A DNA stretch of 64,000 nucleotides, from positions 33,169 through 97,168 of IMG/VR virus record IMGVR_UViG_2974540528_000001, one strand, 5' to 3'. The notes beneath the pieces are model-generated. The model was not told the DNA's origin and made no database searches. It saw only the letters and a list, made by a program, of their open reading frames with translations. The translations under genes were made by a program, and so were the position numbers. This document shows, piece by piece, positions 9,558 through 59,526 of the stretch; the stretch's first letter is position 1, and each line of letters begins with the position of its first letter. Origin of the DNA: a virus (Duplodnaviria > Heunggongvirae > Uroviricota > Caudoviricetes).

Positions 9558-9633
9558 TGGATGCGGGTAGCAGACTCGAACTGCTCTTCGTTCGGCTTAT
9601 GAGACCGATGAACTCCCTGAGTTCTAACCCGCA
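9558..9633 (-). tRNA. tRNA-Met(CAT)
   Basis: Hand-folded cloverleaf: acceptor TGCGGGT/ACCCGCA, T-arm GCAGTTCGAGTCTGC, anticodon stem TCGGT/GCCGA with loop CTCATAA; CCA encoded. Confidence 0.8.
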
Positions 9634-10175
9634 ATTGTTTTGTAATCATTCACAGCCAAGAGAAATTTCTCATCTTCTCTTGTTGAATGCTCAAGAATGT
9701 GACAGTTTGCGCACAGCAGTTCACATTTCTCTATTTCTGGCAGTAAAGACTCCCAAGACTTATTGGAAAACCTTCCAATTTCGAAATCTTTATCACGAAG
9801 ATGATGAAACTGTAGTGCCACAGGATTATCATATCCGCAACGATTACAACAGCCGCCTAAATGGTCTATAGCTTTCAGTTTATTTCTGTGCCTTCTTATT
9901 TTTGTAATGCAGGTAGGGCATGTGTGTCGCCTCTTGCACTCTTTACCGCAGACCTTGCAACTGTTGGGAACTTCTTTTCTGTTGTTTGGTAGGTTTATGG
10001 TTTTTAGTTTAAGGGAGATAAGGCGAGACTTCATAGTGGAAGTAGGTATCCCAAAATGTTTTGCTAGCATACTCACAGAGTAGCCTCTCGCAATAAGTTC
10101 TTCAATGTTTTCCATAAAACCCTTAATTGGTGCAGAGAGAAGGTATCGAACCTTCCTCTCAAGCTCTTCAGGCAA
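9624..10175 (-). CDS. HNH homing-endonuclease-like protein
   Basis: 183 aa; Cys-rich with HNH core (QFHHL...CELLCANCHILEH); located inside the tRNA array. Confidence 0.65.
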   Translation of the reverse strand: MPEELERKVRYLLSAPIKGFMENIEELIARGYSVSMLAKHFGIPTSTMKSRLISLKLKTINLPNNRKEVPNSCKVCGKECKRRHTCPTCITKIRRHRNKLKAIDHLGGCCNRCGYDNPVALQFHHLRDKDFEIGRFSNKSWESLLPEIEKCELLCANCHILEHSTREDEKFLLAVNDYKTIAG

Positions 10176-10208
10176 GCGCTAATCCGTCTCAGCTATCTCT
10201 GCATAAAG

Positions 10209-10294
10209 TGGTGGGCAAGGAGAGACTCGAACTCTCACACCGCAAGGGCGCTGGAACCTAAATCCAGTGCGTCTACCAATTCCGCCACTTGCCC
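10209..10294 (-). tRNA. tRNA-Leu(TAG)
   Basis: Acceptor GGGCAAG/CTTGCCC, long variable arm, anticodon loop TTTAGGT, T-arm GAGAGTTCGAGTCTCTC, CCA encoded. Confidence 0.8.
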
Positions 10295-20435: not shown

Positions 20436-20442
20436 TTGTCAA

Positions 20443-22830: not shown

Positions 22831-23066
22831 GCAGACTTGCAAAACTAAACAGAAGAAAGAAAATGTTGAAAGAAAAGCAGAAAAACATCACGGCTACTTT
22901 CCAAGTATGCCGAGAGGCTATGAAGGCAAATCGGATAACACCTTCGCAGAGACAGTTGATCCGTGATATTCTTCGTCCTGTGCTCCATGACCTTGAAGGT
23001 GAAGTTCGTGATGTTACACTTCATATTCAAGAGGAACTTGTAAAAAGATATCAGGAGAATACATGA
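22827..23066 (+). CDS. hypothetical protein
   Basis: 79 aa, basic N-terminus; overlaps neighbours by 4 nt. Confidence 0.4.
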   Translation: MSRLAKLNRRKKMLKEKQKNITATFQVCREAMKANRITPSQRQLIRDILRPVLHDLEGEVRDVTLHIQEELVKRYQENT

Positions 23067-23656
23067 TTGACCATGTTACGTCAGACACTCACTGGTGGCA
23101 TACCAACATCCTTGGTTTCCCATCGTGTGATAAATTCCGTAAGAATCTGTACGGTCAAAAAGAAGACCGTGAAAGTCTGTATGCCATGAATGCAGGTATG
23201 ATTGAAATCTGGAATAAGCACGTCAAACCAGATGATGTCGTAGCACACCTTGGTGACTTCGTGATCGCTTACGGTCGCTACGTTGAGCCACGCACTCGTG
23301 ATATTCTGGAAAAGATCAACGGAAAGATCATTCTTGTTGGTGGTAACCATGACAACCGAGATACGAAACGTATCTTCCGTGAATTCGGTCATGAAGTTGT
23401 TGATTATAAAGAGATTAACTTCAGCACTGGAAAAGAGAAGGTGCATGTGTGTATGTCTCACTATCCGTTCGCATCGTGGAACAAAGCACACCACGGGTCA
23501 GTTATGTTGCACGGGCATAGCCACGGCTCCTATACAGCCCCCGGTGGACGTATTCTCGATGTAGGTTGGGATGTTCATGGTCGTCCTCTGACGATGCGTG
23601 AGGCCGTCCTGATGTGCCTCAAAAAACCAATCTACACTGCTGACCACGGAGAATAA
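23063..23656 (+). CDS. calcineurin-like metallophosphoesterase
   Basis: 197 aa; metallophosphatase motifs DTHWWH, GDFV, GGNHDN, and HGHSHG near the C-terminus. Confidence 0.7.
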   Translation: MIDHVTSDTHWWHTNILGFPSCDKFRKNLYGQKEDRESLYAMNAGMIEIWNKHVKPDDVVAHLGDFVIAYGRYVEPRTRDILEKINGKIILVGGNHDNRDTKRIFREFGHEVVDYKEINFSTGKEKVHVCMSHYPFASWNKAHHGSVMLHGHSHGSYTAPGGRILDVGWDVHGRPLTMREAVLMCLKKPIYTADHGE

Positions 23657-23657
23657 G

Positions 23658-24014
23658 ATGCATAACAAAGAACGAAATTTCATAGCACGTAACACGGCGA
23701 AGTCTTTCTTCGCTACTATTCACATTGCCGGGGATTATGCTCAGGCCGAGAATTTGTGTCGCCAGTGGGTTATGCAAGGTGCTTGTGTGCAGATTGCTCC
23801 ATGCACCTATGTTTACACAGGTGGTGTCGAAGATGGTATGACTGTGCGGTTGATGCAGTATCCACGTTTCCAGCGTCAGGAGCATGAGATATTATCAATG
23901 GCTGTCGAACTTGGAAAATATCTTGCTCAGGAGATGTGCCAGATAAGCTTCAGTATCGAAACTCCTTATAATACAACATATTATCAGGCGGAAGGTTATG
24001 AAAAAAGATCTTGA
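23658..24014 (+). CDS. hypothetical protein
   Basis: 118-aa ORF starting 2 nt after the phosphoesterase stop. Confidence 0.4.
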   Translation: MHNKERNFIARNTAKSFFATIHIAGDYAQAENLCRQWVMQGACVQIAPCTYVYTGGVEDGMTVRLMQYPRFQRQEHEILSMAVELGKYLAQEMCQISFSIETPYNTTYYQAEGYEKRS

Positions 24015-24195
24015 TCTTATCCATAACGTGGCCTTTTTGATTAGCGAGCTTGAAGAATATGTTGACGAACTAGACCTGAGCATCTATGATGACTACAGTG
24101 AAATGAAATCAGCACAAAAGGAAGTGCTCAAACTATTGAAAAATCTCAGACGAAGGAGAGAACATGAAATTCAACGTAGACGATTTGGTCGCTAA
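23998..24195 (+). CDS. hypothetical small protein
   Basis: 65 aa, charged helical. Confidence 0.3.
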   Translation: MKKDLDLIHNVAFLISELEEYVDELDLSIYDDYSEMKSAQKEVLKLLKNLRRRREHEIQRRRFGR

Positions 24196-25126
24196 AAAAC
24201 TGGTAACCAAAAAGACTTACACCGAAGGCCCGTTCGCGGGTCTGTCTGTGCTGAAGTATAAGAACAATGTGTTCTGGGATAACCTGTGGCATACTGACCC
24301 ACGCCTGCTTGAGTGCCGTGGCATGGTTGTTGATTCAGAAGACAACGTGATTATCTGGCCTTTCACTAAGATTTTCAACCGCTTCGAGAATGGAACTGAC
24401 CTTCCTCTTGACAAACCGGTTATTTGTTCCCGCAAGGTCAATGGTTTTATGGCTACAGCGGCAATACACAAAGACAAGCTCCTCGTTTCAACAACAGGGA
24501 CATTGGATTCTGAGTTTTCAGAATTGGCTCGTAAGTACCTCGAAAAAATGAATTTTGATCTGATTTCTTTCCGTGAAGATTACACTTTCATTTTCGAAAT
24601 ATGCGATAGCAGCGACCCACACATTGTGGAAGAGAAAGAAGGTGCTTATCTGATTGGTGTCCGTGACCTCGCTTTAAACGGTGTTATGGTTGAAGAGCAC
24701 AAACTTGATCGCATCGCTGAAGTGATCGGTGCAAAACGTCCTCAATGGGATGTCCGTGCATTTGGCGATGTCGTTGCAGCCAGTCATGCTGTTAGCCACG
24801 AAGGTTTTGTTGTCCGAAATATCGGGACAGATGACGAAAATAGCGAACTACTTTTGAAAATCAAGTCCCCACATTACCTGGCGAAGAAATTCCTGATGCG
24901 TGGAGGTGATAACAAGTGGGATATGATCTGGGATAACCCGAAAGAGGCCAAGAAGCGTATTGACGAAGAGTATTACGAGTTGCTAGACCATATTCGTGAG
25001 TATTACTCTAAAGATGTTTGGTCCGCGATGGATTCTCAAAAACGACGTCAGGTTGTTGAAGATTACTTCGCTATCGAAGACATGTTTGATCGTGGTAGTC
25101 GTTTTTATGTTGGGGTTCCAAAATGA
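24164..25126 (+). CDS. RNA-ligase-like nucleotidyltransferase (covalent nucleotidyltransferase superfamily)
   Basis: 320 aa; motif-I-like lysine in ICSRKVNGFMATA (KxNG as in Trl1-type RNA ligases); RBS GAAGGAGAGAACATG. Confidence 0.5.
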   Translation: MKFNVDDLVAKKLVTKKTYTEGPFAGLSVLKYKNNVFWDNLWHTDPRLLECRGMVVDSEDNVIIWPFTKIFNRFENGTDLPLDKPVICSRKVNGFMATAAIHKDKLLVSTTGTLDSEFSELARKYLEKMNFDLISFREDYTFIFEICDSSDPHIVEEKEGAYLIGVRDLALNGVMVEEHKLDRIAEVIGAKRPQWDVRAFGDVVAASHAVSHEGFVVRNIGTDDENSELLLKIKSPHYLAKKFLMRGGDNKWDMIWDNPKEAKKRIDEEYYELLDHIREYYSKDVWSAMDSQKRRQVVEDYFAIEDMFDRGSRFYVGVPK

Positions 25127-25467
25127 TTATCTGGCTTGATGACCTGAGAGATCCAAAAGACTACGGGTATCCTGATGCCTTGTGGTTCAAGACCTCTCAG
25201 AAATTTATGGACTTTCTGGACAACAGGTCAAAGTTCTATCGTTATGTCACAGAGTGGCATTTCGATAATGACCTTGGTGAAGAGTCAGAAATGGAGGGCT
25301 ATGACTGCCTGTTGGCCTTGGAAGAGAAGCTTGTGTATGGAAAACTTCCTGTGCATGATGCTAAACTCTATGTCCATACGTCTAACCCTTCTGCGGCACA
25401 AAAGTTCATGCTTGCAAAAGAGAGCTTCTTGAAGTATCGTATCACGATCTTAAGAAACAATTACTGA
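25123..25467 (+). CDS. hypothetical protein
   Basis: 114-aa ORF overlapping the ligase-like gene stop. Confidence 0.4.
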   Translation: MIIWLDDLRDPKDYGYPDALWFKTSQKFMDFLDNRSKFYRYVTEWHFDNDLGEESEMEGYDCLLALEEKLVYGKLPVHDAKLYVHTSNPSAAQKFMLAKESFLKYRITILRNNY

Positions 25468-25476
25468 GGAGAAGAG

Positions 25477-25881
25477 ATGGAAAAGACTCTGATTATCCTG
25501 CGTGGTGTGTCTGGTGCTGGTAAGTCTACAGTTGCTGAAACAATCGCGGGTAAAGCATGGCCTGTATTTGAGGCCGATAAATACCATTATCGGGACGGGG
25601 TTTACGACTGGAAGCCTGAAAACATGGCTGTTGCTCATAAGTGGTGTCAAGAACAGGTACGTGAGGCTATGGTGTGCCGTATTGCAAAAATTATCGTATC
25701 CAACACTTCGACAACAGAGAAGGAACTAAAACCCTACATTGCCCTTGCTGATGAGCACGGATACCAAGTTATTAGCTTGGTGGTCGAGAATAGGCATGGT
25801 AATGATTCTATTCACAATGTTCCGCAGGAAACTCGTGATGCTCAAGAGCTTCGTCTGCGTAACTCATTGAAATTACAGTAA
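25477..25881 (+). CDS. P-loop polynucleotide-kinase-like protein (T4 Pnk kinase-domain-like)
   Basis: 134 aa; Walker A LRGVSGAGKSTVA at N-terminus; small AAA_33/Pnk-like kinase architecture. Confidence 0.55.
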   Translation: MEKTLIILRGVSGAGKSTVAETIAGKAWPVFEADKYHYRDGVYDWKPENMAVAHKWCQEQVREAMVCRIAKIIVSNTSTTEKELKPYIALADEHGYQVISLVVENRHGNDSIHNVPQETRDAQELRLRNSLKLQ

Positions 25882-25889
25882 GGAAAGAT

Positions 25890-26114
25890 ATGTATAAAGG
25901 AAATAACCTACGGGAATCGTTCGAAAATTGGTGGGACTCTCTTAGCGATCCTTGGTCAACACCAGAAGCAAAATCTGCTGCATGGGAAGCCTGGAAGTTT
26001 TCAAATTTACGAGTTCTTAATAAAATTCGTTATATGAAAGGTATTACCGAGCGGTGCAATGGTTATAATGAGGCTATGAATGAGATAAATAATGTTATAG
26101 GGGAAAATCCATGA
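25890..26114 (+). CDS. hypothetical small protein
   Basis: 74-aa ORF with RBS AAGGAAAG upstream. Confidence 0.35.
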   Translation: MYKGNNLRESFENWWDSLSDPWSTPEAKSAAWEAWKFSNLRVLNKIRYMKGITERCNGYNEAMNEINNVIGENP

Positions 26115-26887
26115 GACGTCTTATCGTTATAAGTGGTGCTGGCTTCTCTGCGGAGAGTGGTGTACGTACATTCCGCACAGATACTGAATCTGGTAAAGCC
26201 CTGTGGGATGAATACGACCTTGAGGAGGTTTGTAACATACACGCCTTCCGTGGTAACTTCTACCATAAAACGCACATGTTTTATAACAAGCGTCGTGCAG
26301 AGTTACCAACGGTACATCCGAATGCGGCGCATCTTCGCGTGGCTGAGTGGTACAGACGTTATCCTGGGCAGGTTGTTAACATGACAACTAACGTTGATGA
26401 CCTTCTGGAACGTGCGGGTGTCCCTAAAGAAGATACTCTTTACATACATGGTTATCTGAAAGAGATCCTTGTTAAAGATGCTTTCACCAAGAAGATAAAG
26501 GTTGTCGATATTGGCTACGACCAAATTGATCCTGATGATTATGATTGGTGTAAACCAAACGTAATTTTCTTTGGTGAAAATGCTCCGGCGTATGGACCTA
26601 TGTCTGATACCCTGGAGTCTTTAGGAAGCCAAGATCTTGTAATTGTTGTTGGGTGCTCAAACACGGTAATCAACTTCAACTGGGAGTTGTTCCCTGCGGT
26701 TATGCGGGGGACCAAAGTTGTTGTTGTTAATCCTGCTATTAGGTATGATGAACAAATGATGTATGAGAATGCGGGTGTTCTTGTATATCGTACCGGAGCT
26801 GTTGATGCCTTTAATAATCCCGGCCTTATCAAGATAGTTGAGAATCACCTTGAAGGTAAGACACCATTGCAAAGCAAGGAGAAATAA
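26111..26887 (+). CDS. Sir2-family protein (sirtuin-like, zinc-less)
   Basis: 258 aa; sirtuin motifs ISGAGFSAESGVRTFR, TTNVDDLLERAG, catalytic HG in LYIHGY, PNVIFFGE and VVGCSN; no CxxC zinc-ribbon. Confidence 0.8.
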   Translation: MRRLIVISGAGFSAESGVRTFRTDTESGKALWDEYDLEEVCNIHAFRGNFYHKTHMFYNKRRAELPTVHPNAAHLRVAEWYRRYPGQVVNMTTNVDDLLERAGVPKEDTLYIHGYLKEILVKDAFTKKIKVVDIGYDQIDPDDYDWCKPNVIFFGENAPAYGPMSDTLESLGSQDLVIVVGCSNTVINFNWELFPAVMRGTKVVVVNPAIRYDEQMMYENAGVLVYRTGAVDAFNNPGLIKIVENHLEGKTPLQSKEK

Positions 26888-32757: not shown

Positions 32758-32960
32758 TGATGTCTGAAAAGATGATTCAAGTACCTGCCTCCATTATCGC
32801 AGAACTCGTGCCGTATATTAACAGCGGACTACGATCAACTGCTGATGAGATGGGAAAGGCTGGACATACCCCATCCGAAGTAATGTCTGAGGATTATGAC
32901 CGTTTTAACTCCCTTCGTAGGATTCTGAGAGAAAACGGAGTCAGCTATGCGAGTAACTGA
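32758..32960 (+). CDS. hypothetical small protein
   Basis: Start chosen at ATG 32758 after RBS AAGGAGCATATG rather than the track start 32712. Confidence 0.35.
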
Positions 32961-33453
32961 TAAATACGTCTTCTTCTTCACTTACCGGGATATGTTCAGT
33001 AATCACTACCGCCAAGTTATTCCTATTCGTTGTGGTGGTTATGAGTTTTTCACTGTAGAACATTACATGATGTTCCAGAAGGCAATGCTCTTCGATGACA
33101 AAGAAATTGCTTCCCGCATCGCTACGGTTGATAACCCGAATGAGGCCAAAGCTCTTGGTCGTCAGGTAAAAGGTTTCGACAATAACGTCTGGGAAGAGAA
33201 TAGGATGGATATTGTGACTTCAGGCCTTGTATTGAAAATGAAGGCCAACAGATCTGTCCTCGAAGCGGCGCTTGGGCATCGAGATGCAGGGCGTAAGTTT
33301 GTGGAAGCCTCTCCTTATGATGCCATCTGGGGTGTTAAATTAAACGAATATGATACACGTATCGATGATCCTGCCAATTGGCGTGGTTTGAATCTTCTCG
33401 GTGAGTGCTGGGAACGGGCTATTGATATTGTTGTTGCTGCAACGTGGAGGTGA
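32947..33453 (+). CDS. NADAR-domain (YbiA-like) protein
   Basis: 168 aa; NADAR-type motifs FFFTYRDMFSNHYRQ and EFFTVEHYMMFQKAMLFDD. Confidence 0.65.
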   Translation: MRVTDKYVFFFTYRDMFSNHYRQVIPIRCGGYEFFTVEHYMMFQKAMLFDDKEIASRIATVDNPNEAKALGRQVKGFDNNVWEENRMDIVTSGLVLKMKANRSVLEAALGHRDAGRKFVEASPYDAIWGVKLNEYDTRIDDPANWRGLNLLGECWERAIDIVVAATWR

Positions 33454-51067: not shown

Positions 51068-51562
51068 ATGACAGTTAGTATTCATGGGATTCTTTCCCAT
51101 CGGAGACTGATGGAACTGAAGAATTGTGGAGTCGTCGAGCCTGAATTTTTCGAGTCCGAGGTGACAAAGTATTACAATCTCTATCTAAAGGTTGTGGCTG
51201 AATCACTTTATAGAATGAATGACGGGTTCTTTACCCGGATGATTTATAGCCGTTCCGCTGCCGAGCGGGATGCCTCTTGGATGTTCCCGGATCGTCGTGA
51301 CCTGTTGGAACATTTGATTTACCTAGATGGAAAATCTCAGTACGTGAGTTTGACCAAAGAAGAGCTTAACCACTTTACGCTGTTGCATCAAGCGGCAGTA
51401 GCCTCAGAACGCGCCAAGAGGGTACTCCTGTGCTTTAAGTACAGCGACCAAGTCCTTGTGGATGATGATTCAGGGTTCAATATAGACTGGTTGTTACGGA
51501 ATGCATATACATTACGACAACTGATTGTAGACGCGAATGGGGAGACACAAGATGCAGAATAA
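51068..51562 (+). CDS. hypothetical protein
   Basis: 164-aa ORF with RBS AGGAGTATG. Confidence 0.4.
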   Translation: MTVSIHGILSHRRLMELKNCGVVEPEFFESEVTKYYNLYLKVVAESLYRMNDGFFTRMIYSRSAAERDASWMFPDRRDLLEHLIYLDGKSQYVSLTKEELNHFTLLHQAAVASERAKRVLLCFKYSDQVLVDDDSGFNIDWLLRNAYTLRQLIVDANGETQDAE

Positions 51563-52463
51563 CGACAAAAAGAATTACTTTGGCTTTGGCGGTGGTTTTG
51601 GTGGGGAAGGTTCTTTCTGCTATCCAATGCCCTCTCATGAGCATGTGATCTATATTCATGATTTGGATTATATGGAAGATCATTTCAATAAATTGCAACA
51701 AATACGTCAAGCCAACCCAGACGATATGGTGCGTGTTATCATCAACACTTACGGTGGACGTGTAGATATCGCAATGGCTTATGTTAGTGCGATGCGCGAG
51801 AGTCAAGCAACTGTAGTTACCCATGCAGAGGGGCAGGTGTGTTCTGCTGGAACAATCTTATGGCTGGCTTCTAAAGAGCGAACTGTCGCCCCAATGACGG
51901 AATTTATGTTCCATAACTACCAGGGTGGGGCATTTGGTGATGGGGCTAATATTTATACCCAGGTGCTGTTCTATAAACAACACTTCGATCGCTTAATCGA
52001 TTATTTCTACAAAGGTGTATTGACCGACGGGGAGATCAACACAATCAAAGGTGGCGGACAGGTGTGGCTAGATGAAGTTGAGATCACGAAACGAACCCGC
52101 GCAGTGATTTTGGATGATAAAAATATCGAAAGGATGAAATCCGGTAAAAATCCGATCGTAACCCCTGTTGGTGTGAAAGATACCCAGAAAGAGGACACCG
52201 TTACTGGAGACCCTGACCGAAGTGTTGTCCTGAAGGTACATGTCGATGGTGAGACTTTCTCGTTAGATGTGAGAAACCTGAAGGCTTCTGATTTCGATAT
52301 CTTCAACATCGATGAGCTGCAAAGCATTCTGTCACAGGTTGGGGCTATTGCACAAGGAGAAGAAAAGGCACTGGAGATTACCTCTCGTGATCGCCAAGCA
52401 CTAATCGAAGCTCTCCTGACCGCAGGTGAAGTTATCATCGACACCTTTGGGAATGCCGAGTAA
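51537..52463 (+). CDS. ClpP-like serine protease
   Basis: 308 aa; ClpP-type motifs INTYGGRVDIAMAYV, catalytic Ser context EGQVCSAGTILWLAS and His context MFHNYQGG; about 130-aa C-terminal extension. Confidence 0.6.
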   Translation: MGRHKMQNNDKKNYFGFGGGFGGEGSFCYPMPSHEHVIYIHDLDYMEDHFNKLQQIRQANPDDMVRVIINTYGGRVDIAMAYVSAMRESQATVVTHAEGQVCSAGTILWLASKERTVAPMTEFMFHNYQGGAFGDGANIYTQVLFYKQHFDRLIDYFYKGVLTDGEINTIKGGGQVWLDEVEITKRTRAVILDDKNIERMKSGKNPIVTPVGVKDTQKEDTVTGDPDRSVVLKVHVDGETFSLDVRNLKASDFDIFNIDELQSILSQVGAIAQGEEKALEITSRDRQALIEALLTAGEVIIDTFGNAE

Positions 52464-53137
52464 TGAGTGCTCCCCTGAAGAAAAAGGGGGAACGTAGGGT
52501 GTTTGGAGTGGGCCACAAGGCCCCTTCAACAAAGGTGTATGCTTTCGAAAACAAAGTTATGCTCTGGAAATGCCCTTATTACGTTCTCTGGACATCTATC
52601 TTAAGACGTTGTTACTCCGAAGTATATCTCTTGAAAAATCCCAGCTACAGAGGTTGTGTTGTGGCGGAGGTATGGCACACTTTCGAAAATTTTAAATCCT
52701 GGGTGCAGGAAAACCGAAATAAGATGGGATTTCTTGACAAGACCCTAGAGTTGGACAAGGACTTTTTGGGAGATGGGAAAACCTACGGCCCTGAGGAATG
52801 CGTATTTATACCATCATGGTTAAATAGTTTGTTGAACGATAGGCAGGGGGATTCACATCTTCCACTTGGTGTATACTTTAATAAGGCGATTGGTAAATAC
52901 AAGGCCCAGATTTCAAACCGTGGCGAAAGAGAATTCTTGGGATATTTCGATAATGCCTACGAGGCGCATCGTTCTTGGCAAAAAAGAAAAGTTGAAATAC
53001 TGATGCTGGCAAGGAAGAAGTATCTGTTGTCACCTTATCAAGATGAAAGGGTGGGAGCAGCTATAAAGACTATCTGCAAAAACATTTTGCAAGATCTGGC
53101 AGAGGGTAATTTGACACATAAGACGTTGAGGAAATGA
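52463..53137 (+). CDS. AP2-domain protein, paralog B of the ORF at 28244-28780
   Basis: 224 aa; shares N-terminal block (W..IL.RCYSE...NPSY.GC.V.E.W..F..F..W) and C-terminal AP2-like block (LPLGVYFNKAIGKYKAQI...LGYFDNAYEAHRSW) with the earlier paralog. Confidence 0.5.
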   Translation: MSAPLKKKGERRVFGVGHKAPSTKVYAFENKVMLWKCPYYVLWTSILRRCYSEVYLLKNPSYRGCVVAEVWHTFENFKSWVQENRNKMGFLDKTLELDKDFLGDGKTYGPEECVFIPSWLNSLLNDRQGDSHLPLGVYFNKAIGKYKAQISNRGEREFLGYFDNAYEAHRSWQKRKVEILMLARKKYLLSPYQDERVGAAIKTICKNILQDLAEGNLTHKTLRK

Positions 53138-53817
53138 TGGTCCCTTTGAAAAAGAAATCTGAACGCAAGCCTATGGACGTATATGAGACTCCTGAATGGG
53201 CCGTACAGGCCCTTTTGGATGTTATCCCTATTAACCCCTCATGGACATACCTAGAACCTTGTAGAGCGTCTGGGAGGTTCTATAATCACATGCCTCTCGG
53301 TTCAGCTTGGGGGGAAATTCGTGAAGGTGTGGATTATCTCAACACCTATTATCCAAATCATGTGGATTGCATCATCACCAACCCGCCATATTCATTGGCC
53401 CAAGAGTTTGTGACAAAAGCACTTGACGATGCCGATGTCGTGATTATGCTTTTGCGGTTAGGGTTCCTTGAGAGTATGAAGCGATGGGAATGGTGGCAAG
53501 AGAATCCTATCACCAGTCTGATGGTGTTGTCTCAAAGACCATCATTTACTGAAGATGGTAAAACAGACGGAAGTGGGTATGCTTACTTTGTCTGGGATCG
53601 AAAGAACAGGCTGAATCTTAAGCCATTTTATTTTTTGGAGGGACAAGACGATGAGTGCCGCAAGCAAGATGCGAGGGATCGCAGAAATCGCAAACGCAGC
53701 AATCCCGCCCGAGATGAACCAGTTGTACGACAACATGGTGGAGGGGATTCACCAATGTGCCAAGAAGGGACTTTTGGGGATGGGGATGGTGATAGACCTG
53801 CCGGATCACCTGCTTGA
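53134..53817 (+). CDS. DNA N6-adenine methyltransferase, second; 3' end uncertain
   Basis: 227-aa ORF; catalytic motif CIITNPPYSLAQEF; last about 55 codons low-complexity and overlap the next well-supported ORF by 166 nt in another frame. Confidence 0.55.
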   Translation: MMVPLKKKSERKPMDVYETPEWAVQALLDVIPINPSWTYLEPCRASGRFYNHMPLGSAWGEIREGVDYLNTYYPNHVDCIITNPPYSLAQEFVTKALDDADVVIMLLRLGFLESMKRWEWWQENPITSLMVLSQRPSFTEDGKTDGSGYAYFVWDRKNRLNLKPFYFLEGQDDECRKQDARDRRNRKRSNPARDEPVVRQHGGGDSPMCQEGTFGDGDGDRPAGSPA

Positions 53818-55154: not shown

Positions 55155-56402
55155 ATGAAAGTATATCTGGTAGGTGGCGCTGTTCGTGATGGTCTGCTGG
55201 GTCGCCCAGTTCATGACCGTGACTACGTGGTTGTGGGTGCAACGCACGAAGAAATGATTGAAAAAGGTTTCACCCAGGTTGGCGCTGCTTTCCCGGTGTA
55301 CTTGCATCCTGAAACCAAAGAAGAATACGCACTGGCCCGTACTGAGCGCAAAACTGGTGAAGGTCATACTGGCTTTGAGACTTTCTTCAGCCCAGATGTG
55401 ACGCTGGAAGAGGATTTGTCTCGTCGTGATCTGACGATCAATGCGATGGCTAAAGACATGGAGACAGGGTTTATCATTGACCCGTTCAACGGTATGCATG
55501 ACCTGTCAAACATGACTCTCCGTCATACGACGTCGGCATTCATGGATGACCCACTGCGTATTCTGCGTCTTTTCCGTCTTAAGGCACAGTTAGGGGAGAG
55601 TTGGTCTGTTGACCATAAAACATACACACTTATGTTTAATAATCGTCACCGCCTTGCGGAGATTAGTCCTGAGCGTAAATGGAAAGAGATGGAAAAGGCT
55701 TTAAATTCCAAAAACTTCCATAACTATGCTTACCACATGTCGATTATGGGCGAACTTCCAGAACTGGATGCCCTTCGTGGAGTAGAGCAGCCGAGAGAAC
55801 ATCACCCGGAAGGAGACGCTTTCATTCATACATTGATGTGTCTGCAACAGGCCGATAAAACCTTTTGCTCTCCTCAGGTGAAATTTGCGGTGCTGTGTCA
55901 TGACTTTGGAAAGGCGATCACTTTCCGTAAGTACGGTAATCTCCTCGGTCATGAAGAGGCTGGGCTTGATCCTGTGCGGACGCTGTGCAGTAGAATTCGA
56001 GTTCCTAACGAATTCAGGGATATTGCACTGTACGTGACAGAGCACCATACTCGTGTGCATTGCATTTTGGGCCGTGGGAATAATAAAGGAATCAAGCCAC
56101 GTTCCATGATGAAGCTTTTCGAAGCCGCAGGTAACGTGGCTAGTCAGAAGACACAGGATAAGGTGTTTGCCTTAGCAGACGCTTGTTTCTGCGATGCCCG
56201 TGGTCGTGGTGCCACGCACGCAGATAAGGAATACCCGCAAGGAAAAATTCTCCTTGATGCTTTCGAGGCGGTTGTAAATACGGACAGCAAGGCGGTATCT
56301 TCCGCAATGCTGGAGAAAGGCAAAAGCGGTAAGGAGATCGGTGAGGCGATCCGTGTTGCACGTATCGATGCAATCCGTAATGTTCTTAAGGAGAGACCAT
56401 GA
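55155..56402 (+). CDS. cca: tRNA nucleotidyltransferase (CCA-adding enzyme, class II)
   Basis: 415 aa; head-domain motif MKVYLVGGAVRDGLLGRPVHDRDYVVVG (GGxVRD...DxD), RRDLTINAMA motif, and HD-domain-like C-terminal part (HD in VLCHDFGKA). Confidence 0.8.
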   Translation: MKVYLVGGAVRDGLLGRPVHDRDYVVVGATHEEMIEKGFTQVGAAFPVYLHPETKEEYALARTERKTGEGHTGFETFFSPDVTLEEDLSRRDLTINAMAKDMETGFIIDPFNGMHDLSNMTLRHTTSAFMDDPLRILRLFRLKAQLGESWSVDHKTYTLMFNNRHRLAEISPERKWKEMEKALNSKNFHNYAYHMSIMGELPELDALRGVEQPREHHPEGDAFIHTLMCLQQADKTFCSPQVKFAVLCHDFGKAITFRKYGNLLGHEEAGLDPVRTLCSRIRVPNEFRDIALYVTEHHTRVHCILGRGNNKGIKPRSMMKLFEAAGNVASQKTQDKVFALADACFCDARGRGATHADKEYPQGKILLDAFEAVVNTDSKAVSSAMLEKGKSGKEIGEAIRVARIDAIRNVLKERP

Positions 56403-56848
56403 AACTTGTAAGTCACGAAGATTTTAACTTGTGGCGGATTCTAAAGAATACTGTAGGTGCGAAGGAAGAGTATGCTCGACTTGTGGCGAGATGTGACTAC
56501 CCCGCTTGGGAATTCCTTAAGTTCTTGGAAAAAGAGGCGAGCAACTTTAGGACCACAAATGAAGGGAAAAGGAAATTTCTTGTGTGGAAAAATGGAGAGC
56601 TTCCTTTCCGCATAGAGAAGGTGGAAATCTTCGATATAACTGAGTATGGGACTCATCACTCAATCAGTTTCAAAGGAATTTCTTGGGCGACTGAGTTTGA
56701 GAAAACGCTGCTCAACCATGCGTTAGCAAGACTTTTCAACCTGGCAGACAGGCTCACGGAAAAAGATGAAAAACTGCTTGAACTTGAGTCTTTCAAACAG
56801 ACCAGAAATGAACTCGGGAACTGGCTGGAGGCGCAGAACAATGCCTAA
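56399..56848 (+). CDS. hypothetical protein
   Basis: 149-aa ORF. Confidence 0.4.
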   Translation: MKLVSHEDFNLWRILKNTVGAKEEYARLVARCDYPAWEFLKFLEKEASNFRTTNEGKRKFLVWKNGELPFRIEKVEIFDITEYGTHHSISFKGISWATEFEKTLLNHALARLFNLADRLTEKDEKLLELESFKQTRNELGNWLEAQNNA

Positions 56849-57050
56849 GGACAAAGAAGAGTACACCTACGAGAAACATCATTTCTTTCTGGACAAACAT
56901 GCAGGGAAGCAAGTTTGTGCATGGTGCGGTTTAGTAGCCCTGCGTAACAAGGCCACAGATTGGTGTATCGAAAAAGGTTGTAATTATCGCTTGCATCCAA
57001 GCTACAAGGGTGCTATGTTTAAATACACAGAGTTCTTCAAAAAAGGATAG
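56844..57050 (+). CDS. hypothetical small Cys-containing protein
   Basis: Start chosen at ATG 56844 (MPKDKEEY...) after AGGCGCAGAACA rather than the track start 56766; contains CAWCGL...C pairs. Confidence 0.35.
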   Translation, partial: PKDKEEYTYEKHHFFLDKHAGKQVCAWCGLVALRNKATDWCIEKGCNYRLHPSYKGAMFKYTEFFKKG

Positions 57051-57054
57051 AAAA

Positions 57055-57366
57055 ATGAATTATCTTGATGACGTTGTACTCCCTGTATGGAGATTTATCT
57101 TTAATAACGCAGCCTTGCTGGTTGTCGTTCTAAGTGTCTTGGCTGGATTGTGTGTTGGTCTCGTTTATCGTGCAGAGGACGACACAGTGTGGGATAAATA
57201 TGGAATTCCAGCGTTAATAGCTGTTATGTGCGGTTTATTCCTTCCGGTAATCATAGGGCTTGGGGTTATGCTTCTTCCCGCATTTATATTCCTTGCCATA
57301 ACTGCGGCCATAGGATTGGGGATGTTTCTTCTGGTTAAGTTTGTGAAGGAAAGGAAAGGGAAATGA
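57055..57366 (+). CDS. hypothetical membrane protein
   Basis: Start chosen at ATG 57055 (MNYLDDV...) after AAAAGGATAGAAAAATG rather than the track start 57010; three predicted TM helices. Confidence 0.4.
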   Translation: MNYLDDVVLPVWRFIFNNAALLVVVLSVLAGLCVGLVYRAEDDTVWDKYGIPALIAVMCGLFLPVIIGLGVMLLPAFIFLAITAAIGLGMFLLVKFVKERKGK

Positions 57367-57548
57367 TTTTTGCCATTATTTATATTGTTCTCGGTATCAT
57401 CATGGCAGGGGCTGTAATTTACCACACCCTTCGTGAACAAGATTTACTGAGGGTCGAAGATATTTTAATTTCCCTGGTCTGTGGTGTTTTTTTGGTGGTT
57501 AGCTATTTTATGTGCCATTTGTGGTTGGGTAGGGAAGCATCTGAATAG
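57363..57548 (+). CDS. hypothetical small membrane protein
   Basis: 61 aa with two TM helices. Confidence 0.35.
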   Translation: MIFAIIYIVLGIIMAGAVIYHTLREQDLLRVEDILISLVCGVFLVVSYFMCHLWLGREASE

Positions 57549-57578
57549 TAGGACAGTTGTGTACAGGAGAAAGAAATA

Positions 57579-58070
57579 ATGAAGACACGTATGTATTGCG
57601 TAGTAAATCAATATATTGCAGGTATCCATGCCGGAATTCAGTCCGCTCATGCGATCGCTGAGGTATTCCGTGACTACACCCCTGCCAAGACAAAGGCAGG
57701 TAAGTTAGTATTGGAATGGGCTGATGAAGATAAGACTATCATTGTTCTTAATGGCGGTTATCAGTCAAGCCTTCAATCCCTGTGTGAAAAGCTGATCCCT
57801 GTTTCAGCTACGTACCCGTGGGCCTCGTTCTGCGAGGAAAAGGATGCTCTTAACGGGGCAATGACGGCAGTTGCTGTTGTGCTACCAGAGTATATGTACA
57901 ATCCACAATACATGGAAGTTGCGGATCTCGTATACCGACCAGGTCAACTGTCAGGACCACAAATTGCGAATCAGTATCGTGATGAGATGGGAAATGTTAT
58001 CCACAACTATACCCAAGTGGAGAAAGACCTGATTACCATGATCAAATCTTTCCGACTGAAAGGAGAATAG
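57579..58070 (+). CDS. putative peptidyl-tRNA hydrolase, PTH2 family
   Basis: 163 aa; N-terminal MYCVVNQYIAGIHAGIQSAHAIAEVF resembles the PTH2 signature MG-GKIAAQCSHAA. Confidence 0.45.
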   Translation: MKTRMYCVVNQYIAGIHAGIQSAHAIAEVFRDYTPAKTKAGKLVLEWADEDKTIIVLNGGYQSSLQSLCEKLIPVSATYPWASFCEEKDALNGAMTAVAVVLPEYMYNPQYMEVADLVYRPGQLSGPQIANQYRDEMGNVIHNYTQVEKDLITMIKSFRLKGE

Positions 58071-58071
58071 C

Positions 58072-58446
58072 ATGAATGATGTTCGTGGCGATACTCTTAA
58101 GGTTGGCGACTCTGTTTATATTTATTTCGGGTACAATGAACTAAAACCCGGCATTGTAAAGCAGATCCGGGGTAAGCTAGCCAAGGTGTTGGTTGATGCA
58201 TACCCTAACCGGAAAGAAGACGAGAGTCGTTACTCTTTGTCTAAGTGGAAACCTGGTATCTGTATGATCAAGGCGGAAGAGCCTACTGGTTATTATCCAG
58301 ATGAGGTAATCCTTCTGCTTGAAGAGATCCGCCGTCTGCGTGACGAAGCCCCGATGAATAAAGATGGTCTGCCCACAAAGCAACTGTGTCAGGGCCTCCT
58401 GAACTTTTGGGATATGAAACGCCCGATGAAACTGGTAACCTCCTAA
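58072..58446 (+). CDS. hypothetical protein
   Basis: 124-aa ORF. Confidence 0.4.
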   Translation: MNDVRGDTLKVGDSVYIYFGYNELKPGIVKQIRGKLAKVLVDAYPNRKEDESRYSLSKWKPGICMIKAEEPTGYYPDEVILLLEEIRRLRDEAPMNKDGLPTKQLCQGLLNFWDMKRPMKLVTS

Positions 58447-58452
58447 GGAGAG

Positions 58453-59526
58453 ATGATGGAAAATTTCGAAGTGATGCGATGCCACTCAGGAAGTTTGGCT
58501 TATGGCACAAATCTGCCAACTAGTGATGTGGATATCCGGGGTCTGTTCTGCGCCCCTCCTAAATTCATTCGCACCCCGTTCTTTAACATCAAAGAACAGA
58601 CACTGGAAGATGAAGAAGATGGGAAGATTTATGAGCTGACAAACTTCATGAAATTGTTTGCAGAGATGAACCCCAACATTATCGAACTGATGTTTGTCGA
58701 TGATAAGGATATTCTGCAAACCTCTGAAGTTTATGAATATCTTCGCACAATGGCCCCAGCGCTACTGACCAGTAAGGTAGCGTTCTCCTTTTCTGGGTAT
58801 GCGATGGCTCAGTTGAAGCGTATTCGTGGTCACGATAAATGGATCAGCAACCCGCAGCCTGAGGCAAAGCCTACGCAAAAGGAATTCTTCCGATTAGTTC
58901 ACAACTATAGTGAGAACGAGTTCCTTGCTGGGGCAATTAAACATGATCGCTTCATGGAAGCAATGAACAATCTCAACGATATGTGTATCCTTGTACCTTA
59001 TGGGAACGATATCTATGGGGTGATGGAAAACTTCAGTAGCTCAGGGATGTTCAATGCTGACGGTTCAATTCGCCATGTTGACTATCAGCAACTTTCTGAC
59101 TCTGACAAGCGGAGAAAACCTGTCTTTATTGTCAAATATTTGGCAGAGGAACACAAACAGGCCAAAGAGAAGCATCGTAACTATTGGACATGGAAACAGA
59201 ACCGAAATGAAGTTCGTCACCAGCTCGAAGTTGATTTTGGTTATGACACGAAACATGCGATGCACCTTGTACGCCTGATGCGTATGGCAGAAGAGATTCT
59301 TTCTGATGGGAAGGTCCTCGTGAAGCGTCCTGATGCTCAGGAACTCCTCGATATCCGGGCTGGTAAGTGGACTCTTGACGAACTGCTCTCATGGGCTGAC
59401 GAGAAGGACCATTATATCCGGGAAGATTTGTACAAAAAGACACAGCTTCCTAAAATGGCGGATCTTGACCTGTTTGCCAGGGTTCTCATGACGGCTCAAG
59501 ATATGTGTTGGAGTAAACTGGTATGA
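58453..59526 (+). CDS. Pol-beta-superfamily nucleotidyltransferase
   Basis: 357 aa; N-terminal RCHSGSLAYGTNLPTSDVDIRG matches the GS-x9-13-DxD nucleotidyltransferase signature. Confidence 0.6.
   Translation: MMENFEVMRCHSGSLAYGTNLPTSDVDIRGLFCAPPKFIRTPFFNIKEQTLEDEEDGKIYELTNFMKLFAEMNPNIIELMFVDDKDILQTSEVYEYLRTMAPALLTSKVAFSFSGYAMAQLKRIRGHDKWISNPQPEAKPTQKEFFRLVHNYSENEFLAGAIKHDRFMEAMNNLNDMCILVPYGNDIYGVMENFSSSGMFNADGSIRHVDYQQLSDSDKRRKPVFIVKYLAEEHKQAKEKHRNYWTWKQNRNEVRHQLEVDFGYDTKHAMHLVRLMRMAEEILSDGKVLVKRPDAQELLDIRAGKWTLDELLSWADEKDHYIREDLYKKTQLPKMADLDLFARVLMTAQDMCWSKLV

What the first reader, a model, noticed from the sequence alone, without database searches (positions are those of the whole stretch)
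55155..59526. tRNA-maintenance enzymes on the plus strand: CCA-adding enzyme, PTH2-like hydrolase, Pol-beta nucleotidyltransferase
Within a few kilobases the phage encodes three tRNA-related enzymes:
- a class II CCA-adding enzyme with an HD domain;
- a protein whose N-terminus matches the PTH2 peptidyl-tRNA hydrolase signature;
- a 357-aa GS...DxD nucleotidyltransferase of unknown specificity.

CCA enzymes in phages can regenerate 3' ends removed by host toxins. PTH2 would recycle peptidyl-tRNA. The third enzyme could be a tRNA-modifying or signalling nucleotidyltransferase. Together with the repair module this is a broad investment in the tRNA pool.
Basis: partly seen in the sequence, partly recalled or inferred. 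Interest (0 to 1): 0.55.

Follow-up and report, generated by a model that had tools for sequence, protein, structure and literature searches.

The report
Phage tRNA end-repair enzyme trio
A known Klebsiella phage carries three real genes: a CCA-adding enzyme, a divergent PTH2-type hydrolase and an RlaP-type RNA nucleotidyltransferase, a tRNA-repair kit already described for large phages, so the finding is correct but largely ordinary.

Summary
The window is Klebsiella phage vB_KpnM_BIS47 (Vequintavirinae), and the three genes are real and sit at the stated coordinates.

- **CCA-adding enzyme, 415 aa.** It is 46% identical over its full length to E. coli Cca, with all head-domain motifs and the HD domain. 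Since 22 of the 24 phage tRNA genes already encode CCA, its role is repair, not maturation.
- **PTH2-like protein, 163 aa.** It falls below the Pfam PTH2 threshold. A confident AlphaFold model nevertheless matches only PTH2 structures in the PDB. The family keeps Q..HA, W, G and T, but has His and Glu where PTH2 has Lys18 and Asp86. It is also acidic and has an insert before the last strand.
- **Nucleotidyltransferase, 357 aa.** It is an RlaP-family (PF10127) enzyme and a relative of RB16 NrdC.11. It is not a CD-NTase, and there is only weak, generic fold similarity to aminoglycoside or antitoxin nucleotidyltransferases. A 2025 preprint shows that RlaP adds 1-2 nucleotides to the 3'-OH of damaged tRNA.

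The order CCA, PTH2-like, RlaP recurs in two Vibrio phages, contiguously in one of them. The CCA/PTH2-like pair overlaps in Rheinheimera phages.

All three enzyme kinds were already listed as phage RNA-repair tools in 2021. Verdict: interpretation supported, novelty low, no activities tested.

The parts
55155..56402 (+). BIS47_140: class II CCA-adding / tRNA 3'-end repair enzyme with C-terminal HD phosphohydrolase domain (415 aa)
   Evidence: Pfam PolyA_pol (75.8 bits), PolyA_pol_RNAbd and HD. NCBIfam NF008137 'multifunctional CCA addition/repair protein' scores 426.7 bits, just under its equivalog cut-off of 451. It is 46% identical to E. coli K-12 Cca over the full length, E 3e-117. Motifs GGAVRD, D21xD23, RRD, DDPLR and H249-D250 are present. 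phrog_2244.
57579..58070 (+). BIS47_145: divergent PTH2-fold hydrolase (163 aa), predicted acyl-/peptidyl-tRNA ester hydrolase
   Evidence: The AF2 model has pLDDT 92.7. The top 13 Foldseek PDB hits are all PTH2 (2zv3, 3erj, 1q7s, 1xty, 1wn2, 1rlk), with probability 1.0 and target TM 0.60-0.71. Pfam PTH2 scores 16.8 bits against a cut-off of 23. 20 of 48 family members hit PTH2, which is the only recurrent family. hhalign against PDB PTH2 sequences gives E 1e-4 and pairs Q21/H24/W47 with Q22/H25/W49.
58453..59526 (+). BIS47_147: long-form RlaP-family (PF10127) Pol-beta nucleotidyltransferase (357 aa; RefSeq start 58456)
   Evidence: Pfam RlaP 56 bits, E 6e-15, covering residues 9-125 and profile positions 23-141 of 249. 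BLASTP to RB16 NrdC.11 gives E 4e-13. An HMM of 25 bacterial short RlaPs hits only this ORF in the window (E 1e-11 six-frame; NTase-domain alignment to aa 8-125). G13, S14, D25, D27 and E78 are invariant. The AF2 model has pLDDT 90.4: an NTase domain, an inserted beta-rich region and a helical C-terminal domain.
56399..57548 (+). Four small ORFs between the CCA and PTH2-like genes (BIS47_141-144: 149 aa of unknown function, 69 aa, and two small membrane proteins); no evidence they belong to the module
   Evidence: Annotated in RefSeq. phrog_19588 and phrog_22743 are of unknown function, and there are no Pfam hits. The 149-aa protein has no similarity to the gene at the same position in Vibrio phage D148. 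These ORFs are absent between the two genes in Vibrio phage 495E54-1 and Rheinheimera phage Barba8S.
58072..58446 (+). BIS47_146: DUF7205 protein (124 aa) between the PTH2-like and RlaP genes; not conserved at this position elsewhere
   Evidence: Pfam DUF7205 159.6 bits. D148 has an unrelated 55-aa ORF at this position and 495E54-1 has nothing.
23063..25881 (+). Distant partner module: Metallophos phosphoesterase (23063-23656), Rnl1-type RNA ligase (24164-25126), AAA_33 kinase (25477-25881), i.e. end-healing plus sealing
   Evidence: RefSeq annotation. Pfam Metallophos, RNA_lig_T4_1 (50.6 bits) and AAA_33. It lies about 30 kb upstream of the trio on the same strand.
9558..17318 (-). Array of 24 phage tRNA genes, the likely clients of the enzymes together with host tRNAs
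   Evidence: ARAGORN. 22 of the 24 genes end in an encoded CCA.

Best explanation
The three genes form a phage kit for repairing and recycling tRNA ends. It complements the phage's 24 tRNA genes and its ligase, kinase and phosphoesterase module.

1. **CCA enzyme.** It rebuilds missing C74-C75-A76 on tRNAs without a template, using the D21/D23 carboxylates of its Pol-beta head. Its HD domain probably clears 2',3'-cyclic or 3'-phosphate ends first, as E. coli Cca does (from memory, Yakunin 2004). Almost all the phage's tRNA genes already encode CCA, so the job is repair of shortened ends, not maturation.
[quoted passage not shown] The Rnl1-type ligase can then reseal it to full length. This activity was shown for Pseudomonas RlaPs in a preprint and is inferred here.
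3. **PTH2-fold protein.** It hydrolyses the ester that links a peptide or blocked amino acid to A76. This frees stalled or damaged tRNAs for reuse or repair. This step is inferred from the fold and conserved motifs only.

Shown here: gene reality, family and fold assignments, intact catalytic signatures, and conserved gene order in other phages. Inferred: all enzymatic activities, the substrates, and the counter-defence purpose.
For: **CCA enzyme**
- Domains and motifs are as expected for a class II enzyme with an HD domain.
- It is 46% identical to E. coli Cca over the full length, with D21/D23 aligned. Those two carboxylates are the catalytic pair in E. coli (PMC6468291).
- 22 of 24 phage tRNA genes encode CCA. 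This parallels E. coli, where Cca acts in repair.

**RlaP-type enzyme**
- Pfam RlaP scores 56 bits against a gathering cut-off of 23.
- RB16 NrdC.11 matches the same part of the profile (43.5 bits), and BLASTP to it gives E 4e-13.
- The canonical RlaP signature 'sGs..yG..sD.D.rG ... N.N..E' aligns with the protein.
- RlaP biochemistry, and the placement of T4 NrdC.11 in the family, come from PMC12776372.

**PTH2-like protein**
- The model is confident and hits only PTH2 structures in the PDB.
- Q21, H24, W47, E86, G93 and T96 align with PTH2 invariants Q22, H25, W49, D86, G95 and T98.
- 20 of 48 family members hit Pfam PTH2, best E 1.4e-6.

**Gene linkage in other phages**
- Vibrio phage D148 has CCA, PTH2-like, RlaP, Thg1, Rnl1 and Pnkp in one 10-kb same-strand block.
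- Vibrio phage 495E54-1 has CCA, PTH2-like and RlaP contiguous or overlapping.
- Rheinheimera phage Barba8S has CCA and PTH2-like overlapping by 16 nt.
- A 536-kb contig has RNA ligase, kinase and PTH2-like as adjacent genes.

**Within the window**
- The genes are tightly packed on one strand, with gaps of -8 to +30 nt.

**Literature**
- The 2021 jumbo-phage survey already interprets phage RlaP, CCA, PTH2 and Thg1 as RNA-repair tools (PMC7824862).
Against: - No activity was measured for any of the three proteins.
- The PTH2-like protein fails the Pfam threshold (16.8 against 23 bits).
- It has His17 where PTH2 has Lys18, Gly15 for Lys16 and Glu86 for Asp86. It has no counterpart of Thr90.
- Its pI is 5.6, against 8.8-9.5 for four of five solved PTH2s. 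This is unexpected for a tRNA-binding enzyme.
- The residue pairings outside positions 20-85 come from a low-confidence extension of the hhalign alignment.
- Only the N-terminal half of the 357-aa protein matches the RlaP profile.
- In this phage the RNA ligase lies 30 kb away from the trio.
- In bacterial relatives the usual neighbour is a second RlaP, not a ligase: RtcB occurs in only 2 of 48 loci.
- In jumbo and T4-like phages the genes are 19-53 kb apart, so linkage is not universal.
Confidence: 0.7

Rival explanations
1. The PTH2-fold protein is not a general peptidyl-tRNA hydrolase. Instead it is a specialised de-blocking esterase or counter-toxin. For example, it might strip N-acetyl-aminoacyl groups installed on tRNA by host GNAT toxins, deacylate damaged aminoacyl-tRNAs before CCA rebuilding, or act on a non-tRNA ester.
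For: - The family has a remodelled active-site region: His17 in 43 of 48 members, invariant Glu86, and loss of Lys16, Lys18 and Thr90.
- It is acidic in charge.
- It is a separate, sizeable family of 2,531 50%-identity clusters. All six of its distant-homologue contexts inspected (one search hits) look phage-like.
- It is translationally coupled to the CCA enzyme in Barba8S and 495E54-1, which points to work at the acceptor end.
- That Pth counteracts GNAT toxins such as TacT is recalled from memory (Cheverton 2016) and was not checked here.
Against: - The fold and the Q..HA / W / G / T motifs are those of PTH2.
- No evidence here identifies any alternative substrate.
- Host Pth1 already handles N-blocked aminoacyl-tRNA.
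Confidence: 0.25
2. The enzymes are housekeeping boosters of translation capacity, not counter-defence tools. On this reading the phage simply raises CCA turnover repair and peptidyl-tRNA recycling during the heavy late-gene translation that its 24 tRNAs support.
For: - The CCA enzyme is an ordinary Cca orthologue-like protein.
- E. coli Cca serves routine repair of RNase T damage.
- The large tRNA array suggests optimisation of translation.
- No defence-related family matched any of the proteins.
Against: - The host already supplies Cca and Pth1.
- RlaP has no known housekeeping role. It is tied to damage repair by genomic association and by its in vitro preference for cleaved-tRNA mimics.
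- In D148 the genes sit with Thg1, Rnl1 and Pnkp.
- BIS47 also encodes the classic healing-and-sealing set.
Confidence: 0.25
3. The 357-aa enzyme is a signalling nucleotidyltransferase (cyclic or linear oligonucleotide synthase) or a small-molecule or protein nucleotidyltransferase (ANT- or MNT-like), unrelated to RNA repair.
For: - Its C-terminal half is not covered by the RlaP profile.
Against: - These matches are weak (14-16% identity) and are expected for any Pol-beta fold when no RlaP structure is in the PDB copy.
- Sequence profiles place the protein in RlaP only.
- There are no PADLOC hits to CD-NTase, MenT, AbiEii or Hailong models.
- The CD-NTase EfCdnE Foldseek match has E 2.4.
Confidence: 0.05
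4. The CCA enzyme exists mainly to mature the phage's own tRNAs by adding CCA de novo.
For: Two of the 24 ARAGORN calls do not end in CCA: 13887-13964 and 17246-17318.
Against: 22 of 24 genes encode the CCA. The two exceptions may be miscalled ends or pseudo-tRNAs.
Confidence: 0.05

Closest known systems
E. coli Cca (multifunctional CCA-adding / repair enzyme, class II, with HD domain)
   Same: 46% identity over the full length. It has the same PolyA_pol head, RNA-binding region and HD architecture. The catalytic D21/D23, RRD, [E/D]DxxR and HD motifs are conserved. Both act in a setting where the tRNA genes already encode CCA.
   Different: It is phage-encoded. It scores slightly below the NCBIfam equivalog cut-off (426.7 against 451). 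Motif D reads DDPLR instead of EDPLR.
RlaP family (PF10127): Pseudomonas PfRlaP/PaRlaP and T4-like NrdC.11
   Same: It has the same NTase-domain signature (GS..YG..SD.D.RG ... N.N..E) and a Pfam score well above threshold. It matches the same part of the profile as RB16 NrdC.11. It sits in a phage that also carries an RNA ligase and end-healing enzymes.
   Different: - It is a long form, 357 aa against about 255-265 aa, with an inserted beta-rich region at roughly residues 140-230.
- Its C-terminal helical domain is not matched by the RlaP profile.
- It is not adjacent to a ligase in this genome.
- Bacterial homologues of the long form are usually paired with a short canonical RlaP (25 of 48 loci), whereas the window has only the long form.
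Archaeal/eukaryotic Pth2 (PF01981; e.g. S. solfataricus 1XTY, human PTRH2/Bit1 1Q7S) and the PTH2 noted in jumbo phages
   Same: It has the same alpha/beta fold. It shares the Q..HA, W, G and T motifs and the C-terminal 'h-K/R-L' strand. Jumbo-phage PTH2-type genes (RaK2, GAP32, and Muenster's 'putative peptidyl-tRNA hydrolase') are homologous to its first ~105 residues.
   Different: - It falls below the Pfam threshold.
- Lys16 and Lys18 are replaced by Gly and His, Asp86 by Glu, and the Thr90 loop is shortened.
- It is acidic.
- It has an insert of about 50 residues before the last strand.
Phage T4 tRNA repair (Pnkp + Rnl1) and the jumbo-phage RNA-repair repertoire of Iyer et al. 2021
   Same: The logic is the same: phage tRNAs, plus end healing and sealing, plus nucleotide-restoring NTases (RlaP, CCA, Thg1), plus PTH2 (PMC7824862).
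   Different: Here the repertoire is in a 147-kb Vequintavirinae phage. The CCA, PTH2-like, RlaP order is conserved as a small block in several mid-sized phages. I did not find that point stated in the papers read.

Membership tests
Class II CCA-adding enzyme (bacterial multifunctional Cca) | Pol-beta 'head' domain with GGxVRD and the two catalytic carboxylates DxD | tested here: met
   Pfam PolyA_pol 75.8 bits. GGAVRD at residue 7 and D21-R-D23, aligned with E. coli D21/D23.
Class II CCA-adding enzyme (bacterial multifunctional Cca) | Motif B (RRD) and motif D ([E/D]DxxR nucleotide-selection pocket) | tested here: met
   RRD at residue 90 and DDPLR at 131, aligned with E. coli RRD and EDPLR.
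Class II CCA-adding enzyme (bacterial multifunctional Cca) | C-terminal HD phosphohydrolase domain | tested here: met
   Pfam HD 23.3 bits against a cut-off of 22. HPE..D..H and LCHDFGK align with E. coli.
Class II CCA-adding enzyme (bacterial multifunctional Cca) | NCBIfam equivalog score cut-off (NF008137) | tested here: not met
   426.7 bits against a cut-off of 451. This is a near miss, expected for a diverged phage copy. The match is full length, positions 1-406 of 409.
Class II CCA-adding enzyme (bacterial multifunctional Cca) | Template-independent CCA addition to tRNA | not testable with these tools
   Needs an enzyme assay or cca complementation.
PTH2 peptidyl-tRNA hydrolase (PF01981) | Pfam gathering threshold | tested here: not met
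   16.8 bits against 23, E 0.008, residues 5-72 only. 20 of 48 relatives hit PTH2 at E <= 0.1, best 1.4e-6.
PTH2 peptidyl-tRNA hydrolase (PF01981) | PTH2 alpha/beta fold | tested here: met
   AF2 pLDDT 92.7. The 13 best PDB Foldseek hits are all PTH2, with probability 1.0, target TM 0.60-0.71 and rmsd 2.5-4.4 A.
PTH2 peptidyl-tRNA hydrolase (PF01981) | Conserved AQxxHA motif, Trp49, Gly95 and Thr98 (S. solfataricus numbering) | tested here: met
   Q21, H24, W47 and T96 are invariant and G93 is in 45 of 48 members. They align with Q22, H25, W49, T98 and G95.
PTH2 peptidyl-tRNA hydrolase (PF01981) | Lys18 and Asp86, reported as catalytically important in S. solfataricus Pth2 (from memory, Fromant 2005; both invariant in the five PDB sequences) | tested here: inconclusive
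   The aligned positions are His17 (43 of 48 members) and invariant Glu86. Lys16 aligns with Gly, and Thr90 has no counterpart. The pairing lies outside the confident part of the hhalign alignment, and no 3-D superposition could be inspected.
PTH2 peptidyl-tRNA hydrolase (PF01981) | Hydrolysis of the peptidyl-tRNA ester bond | not testable with these tools
   Needs biochemistry or pth(ts) complementation.
RlaP (PF10127) RNA-repair nucleotidyltransferase | Pfam gathering threshold | tested here: met
   56 bits against 23, E 6e-15.
RlaP (PF10127) RNA-repair nucleotidyltransferase | Pol-beta signature: G-S, DxD and a third carboxylate | tested here: met
   G13, S14, D25, D27 and E78 are invariant in all 34 homologues. 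They align with 'sGs ... sDlDlrg ... NgnvlE' of canonical RlaPs.
RlaP (PF10127) RNA-repair nucleotidyltransferase | Full-length match including the C-terminal helical domain | tested here: not met
   Only profile positions 23-141 of 249 (Pfam) and 26-146 of 260 (own HMM) align. The model does have a helical C-terminal domain, but no RlaP structure was in the PDB copy to compare it with. RB16 NrdC.11 shows the same partial coverage; the RlaP preprint places its T4 homologue NrdC.11 in the family.
RlaP (PF10127) RNA-repair nucleotidyltransferase | Genomic association with an RNA ligase | tested here: inconclusive
   In this phage the Rnl1-type ligase is about 30 kb away. It is 2.6 kb away in Vibrio phage D148. 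RtcB is among the three nearest ORFs in only 2 of 48 bacterial loci.
RlaP (PF10127) RNA-repair nucleotidyltransferase | Addition of 1-2 NMP to RNA 3'-OH | not testable with these tools
   Shown only for Pseudomonas RlaPs in a preprint.
CD-NTase / cGAS-like signalling synthases | Sequence or fold match to CD-NTases | tested here: not met
   No PADLOC hit. The best CD-NTase Foldseek match, 7x4c, has E 2.4 and probability 0.02.
Aminoglycoside (ANT) / MNT antitoxin nucleotidyltransferases | Family-level sequence match, or strong structural match | tested here: not met
   [not shown]

The most novel reading that the evidence does not exclude
CCA enzyme, PTH2-like hydrolase and long-form RlaP form a conserved, co-translated module dedicated to the tRNA acceptor end. 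The remodelled His/Glu PTH2-like enzyme would strip whatever ester or adduct blocks A76. Candidates are peptidyl or N-acetyl-aminoacyl groups from GNAT toxins, or charged fragments of cut tRNA. The two nucleotidyltransferases would then rebuild the 3' end. That would make it a phage counter-measure against host toxins that attack the acceptor end, not the anticodon loop.
Probability: 0.2. Interest if true: 0.6.

Novelty: new member of a known kind. Interest (0 to 1): 0.3.

Why it matters
Host defences that cut or block tRNAs are a growing theme, for example anticodon nucleases, PARIS, retrons and tRNA-modifying toxins. Phage counter-measures are mostly known as spare tRNAs plus the T4 Pnkp/Rnl1 pair.

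This locus shows a common therapeutic-phage lineage (Vequintavirinae, on Klebsiella, Salmonella and Cronobacter) carrying the wider kit. It upgrades two vague annotations, 'hydrolase' and 'nucleotidyltransferase', to testable functions.

The modest new point is that CCA, PTH2-like and RlaP travel together in several mid-sized phages. That gives a concrete handle for testing what phage PTH2-like and long-form RlaP proteins do. Neither has been characterised biochemically.

Tried and rejected
**Searches that gave nothing or were unavailable**
- Sequence searches of the PDB with the 163-aa and 357-aa proteins, and with the A1 profile, gave only chance hits. Fold search was needed instead.
- The afdb50 fold library was unavailable.
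- Literature searches for Pth2 catalytic residues found nothing usable, and PMC2253226 is not held. The Lys18/Asp86 statement therefore rests on memory plus invariance in five PDB sequences.
- No paper in the library other than the 2021 jumbo-phage survey discusses phage Pth2.

**Region scans that were uninformative**
- The promoter/terminator scan of 54.5-60.3 kb was at background level.
- Rfam found nothing in 52-62 kb.
- Base composition is uniform.
- PADLOC gave no relevant hit.

**Ideas considered and dropped**
- The 149-aa ORF after the CCA gene is not a conserved partner: it has no similarity to the D148 gene at the same position.
- CCA for de novo maturation was rejected, because 22 of 24 tRNA genes encode CCA.
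- A second RlaP paralogue in the window was searched for and not found.

Full report
The 4.4-kb stretch is 100% identical to Klebsiella phage vB_KpnM_BIS47 (Vequintavirinae, Mydovirus). The window equals NC_048656.1 positions 33169-97168. RefSeq annotates them as BIS47_140 'tRNA nucleotidyltransferase', BIS47_145 'hydrolase' and BIS47_147 'nucleotidyltransferase'. They lie in a long same-strand array whose genes overlap or are at most 30 nt apart. Five small ORFs are interspersed: one of unknown function, a 69-aa ORF, two membrane proteins and a DUF7205 protein. The wider window holds 24 tRNA genes. It also holds a phosphoesterase, an Rnl1-type RNA ligase and an AAA_33 kinase at 23-26 kb.

**CCA enzyme.** The 415-aa protein has the PolyA_pol head, the RNA-binding region and an HD domain. 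It scores 426.7 bits on the NCBIfam 'multifunctional CCA addition/repair protein' model, just under the equivalog cut-off of 451. It is 46% identical to E. coli K-12 Cca from end to end. GGAVRD, D21-x-D23, RRD, DDPLR and the HD residues are all in place. D21 and D23 are the catalytic carboxylates in E. coli (PMC6468291). I checked whether the enzyme might be needed to mature the phage's own tRNAs. It is not, because 22 of the 24 tRNA genes already encode the 3' CCA. In E. coli, where all tRNA genes encode CCA, Cca acts in repair of ends nibbled by RNase T. The same logic applies here. Homologues occur in 490 of 50,697 phage records, so this gene is ordinary for large phages.

**The 163-aa protein.**
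- *Sequence evidence is weak.* Pfam PTH2 gives 16.8 bits against a cut-off of 23. There are no NCBIfam or PDB sequence hits.
- *The fold is PTH2.* From an alignment of 48 homologues, AlphaFold gave a confident model with pLDDT 92.7. Its 13 best PDB matches are all PTH2 enzymes: M. jannaschii, A. fulgidus, human Bit1/PTRH2, S. solfataricus, P. horikoshii and T. acidophilum. Probability is 1.0 and target TM 0.60-0.71, and the next hit drops to E 0.7.
- *Conserved residues align.* Profile-profile comparison with five PDB PTH2 sequences gives E 1e-4 (those sequences were verified). It pairs Q21, H24 and W47 with the PTH2 invariants Q22, H25 and W49. A relaxed alignment adds H17/K18, E86/D86, G93/G95, T96/T98 and the C-terminal 'RLK'/'LKL' strand.
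- *Support across the family.* 20 of the 48 relatives individually hit Pfam PTH2, and it is the only recurrent family.
- *The family is its own clade.* It comprises 2,531 clusters at 50% identity. Lys16 and Lys18 are replaced by Gly and His, Asp86 by an invariant Glu, and Thr90 has no counterpart. The pI is acidic, 5.6 against 8.8-9.5 for four of five solved PTH2s. A variable insert of about 50 residues precedes the last strand.
- *Conclusion.* I file it as a PTH2-fold homologue and probable ester hydrolase acting at the tRNA 3' end. Its exact substrate is open.

**The 357-aa nucleotidyltransferase.**
- *Family assignment.* Pfam places it in RlaP (PF10127) at 56 bits, E 6e-15, through its N-terminal NTase domain.
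- *Relation to NrdC.11.* RB16 NrdC.11 matches the same part of the profile and aligns with our protein at E 4e-13. The RlaP preprint places T4 NrdC.11 in the family.
- *Catalytic signature.* G13, S14, D25, D27 and E78 are invariant.
- *What RlaP does.* The preprint shows that two Pseudomonas RlaPs add one or two NMPs to RNA 3'-OH ends. They prefer the 5' half of a cleaved-tRNA mimic, and they help restore aminoacylation of a tRNA that had lost a nucleotide.
- *Signalling enzymes are excluded.* CD-NTases are essentially unmatched (E 2.4), and PADLOC has no hit.
- *Differences from canonical RlaP.* This is a long form with an inserted beta-rich region. The RlaP profile does not cover its C-terminal domain.
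- *Bacterial relatives.* In bacterial genomes, full-length relatives (27-50% identity, 51 loci) most often sit next to a second, short canonical RlaP. This holds in 25 of 48 loci, whereas RtcB is nearby in only 2. An HMM of those short RlaPs finds only our ORF in the window.

**Are the three genes connected?**
- Vibrio phage D148 has RlaP 45% identical, CCA 42% and PTH2-like 31%. There the same order CCA, PTH2-like, RlaP continues into Thg1, an Rnl1-type ligase and Pnkp, all within one 10-kb same-strand block.
- In Vibrio phage 495E54-1 the three genes are contiguous, and CCA and PTH2-like overlap by 19 nt.
- In Rheinheimera phage Barba8S the CCA and PTH2-like genes overlap by 16 nt.
- In a 536-kb metagenomic contig the PTH2-like gene directly follows an RNA ligase and a kinase. 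Two other contigs have a ligase within 8 kb.
- The linkage is not universal. In jumbo and T4-like phages (XbC2, RaK2, fHe-Yen9-03, phiAS5) the genes lie 19-53 kb apart. Two further contexts show no repair genes nearby.
- I did not correct for shared ancestry, so the linkage is suggestive and not proven.

**Most likely mechanism.** This is a tRNA end-maintenance kit.
- The CCA enzyme rebuilds shortened acceptor ends. Its HD domain probably removes blocking phosphates first, as reported for E. coli Cca (from memory).
- RlaP restores one or two nucleotides lost from a cut tRNA, so that the phage Rnl1-type ligase can reseal it after the kinase and phosphoesterase have healed the ends.
- The PTH2-like hydrolase frees tRNAs that still carry a peptide or blocked amino acid.
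- Family assignments, intact motifs and synteny are shown. Activities, substrates and the counter-defence purpose are inferred.

The main rivals are that the PTH2-like protein has a specialised or non-canonical substrate (0.25), and that the enzymes are housekeeping boosters and not counter-defence tools (0.25). Signalling or antibiotic-type roles for the NTase, and a maturation role for the CCA enzyme, are each about 0.05.

**Comparison with what is known, and novelty.** The 2021 comparative survey of jumbo phages already lists RlaP, CCA-adding enzyme, Thg1 and PTH2, together with ligases and kinases, as the phage RNA-repair repertoire. It offers the same rationale for each (PMC7824862). The phage is a deposited genome, and homologues are widespread: 245 to 490 phage records for each gene. 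The finding is therefore a correct reading of known kinds of genes. What is added here:
- fold-level confirmation that the Vequintavirinae 'hydrolase' is PTH2-like but with a remodelled active-site region;
- assignment of the 'nucleotidyltransferase' to a long-form RlaP subfamily;
- the recurring CCA, PTH2-like, RlaP gene order.

Interest is modest at 0.3. The most novel reading still allowed, a dedicated acceptor-end de-blocking and rebuilding module, gets probability about 0.2.

Noticed in passing
L016-L065 (bacterial genome contigs), e.g. L038:8001-8789 with L038:8878-9657: Bacterial full-length relatives of the 357-aa enzyme (27-50% identity) are usually followed directly by a second, short canonical RlaP of about 255-265 aa. 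This is seen in 25 of 48 loci (Polyangia, Riflebacteria, Ozemobacteraceae and others). An RNA ligase (RtcB) is nearby in only 2 loci. It suggests a long-form plus short-form RlaP pair in bacteria.
   Followed up: partly
window 14241-14315, 13887-13964, 17246-17318 (minus strand): Three odd tRNA calls. One is a 'tRNA-???' with a two-base anticodon call. One is a tRNA-Leu(taa) call ending in CATC and one a tRNA-Met call ending in ACGA, instead of CCA. The other 21 end in an encoded CCA.
   Followed up: no
window 11160-11381 (+): RefSeq annotates a 73-aa CDS, 'DNA ligase' (BIS47_59), lying antisense over tRNA-Lys (11110-11185) and tRNA-Ser (11194-11282). It is probably an annotation artefact.
   Followed up: no
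window 18702-21243 (-), 26111-26887 (+), 32947-33453 (+): A set of NAD-related genes: nicotinamide phosphoribosyltransferase, ribose-phosphate pyrophosphokinase, a Sir2-family protein and a NADAR protein (annotation only). This may be an NAD-replenishing or counter-defence set.
   Followed up: no
L004:8100-10591: In a 536-kb compost-metagenome contig, an RNA ligase (PF09414), a 400-aa AAA_33/Zeta-toxin-like kinase and the PTH2-like gene are consecutive on one strand.
   Followed up: partly
L007:8001-8375 and L007:14184-14618: A T4-like 184-kb contig carries a short (124-aa) PTH2-like gene and, 6 kb downstream, a phage-encoded SmpB (the tmRNA partner). This is another ribosome-rescue gene in a phage.
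   Followed up: no
L015:6480-7214: In Vibrio phage 495E54-1 the RlaP homologue is annotated as only 244 aa. It is 46% identical to residues 7-246 of ours, and then the similarity ends. It may be a frameshift, a truncation or a split gene.
   Followed up: no
[not shown]
   Followed up: yes
window 51537-53817 (+): Upstream neighbours are a ClpP-like protease (308 aa), an HNH endonuclease and a DNA methyltransferase-like protein with no Pfam hit.
   Followed up: no
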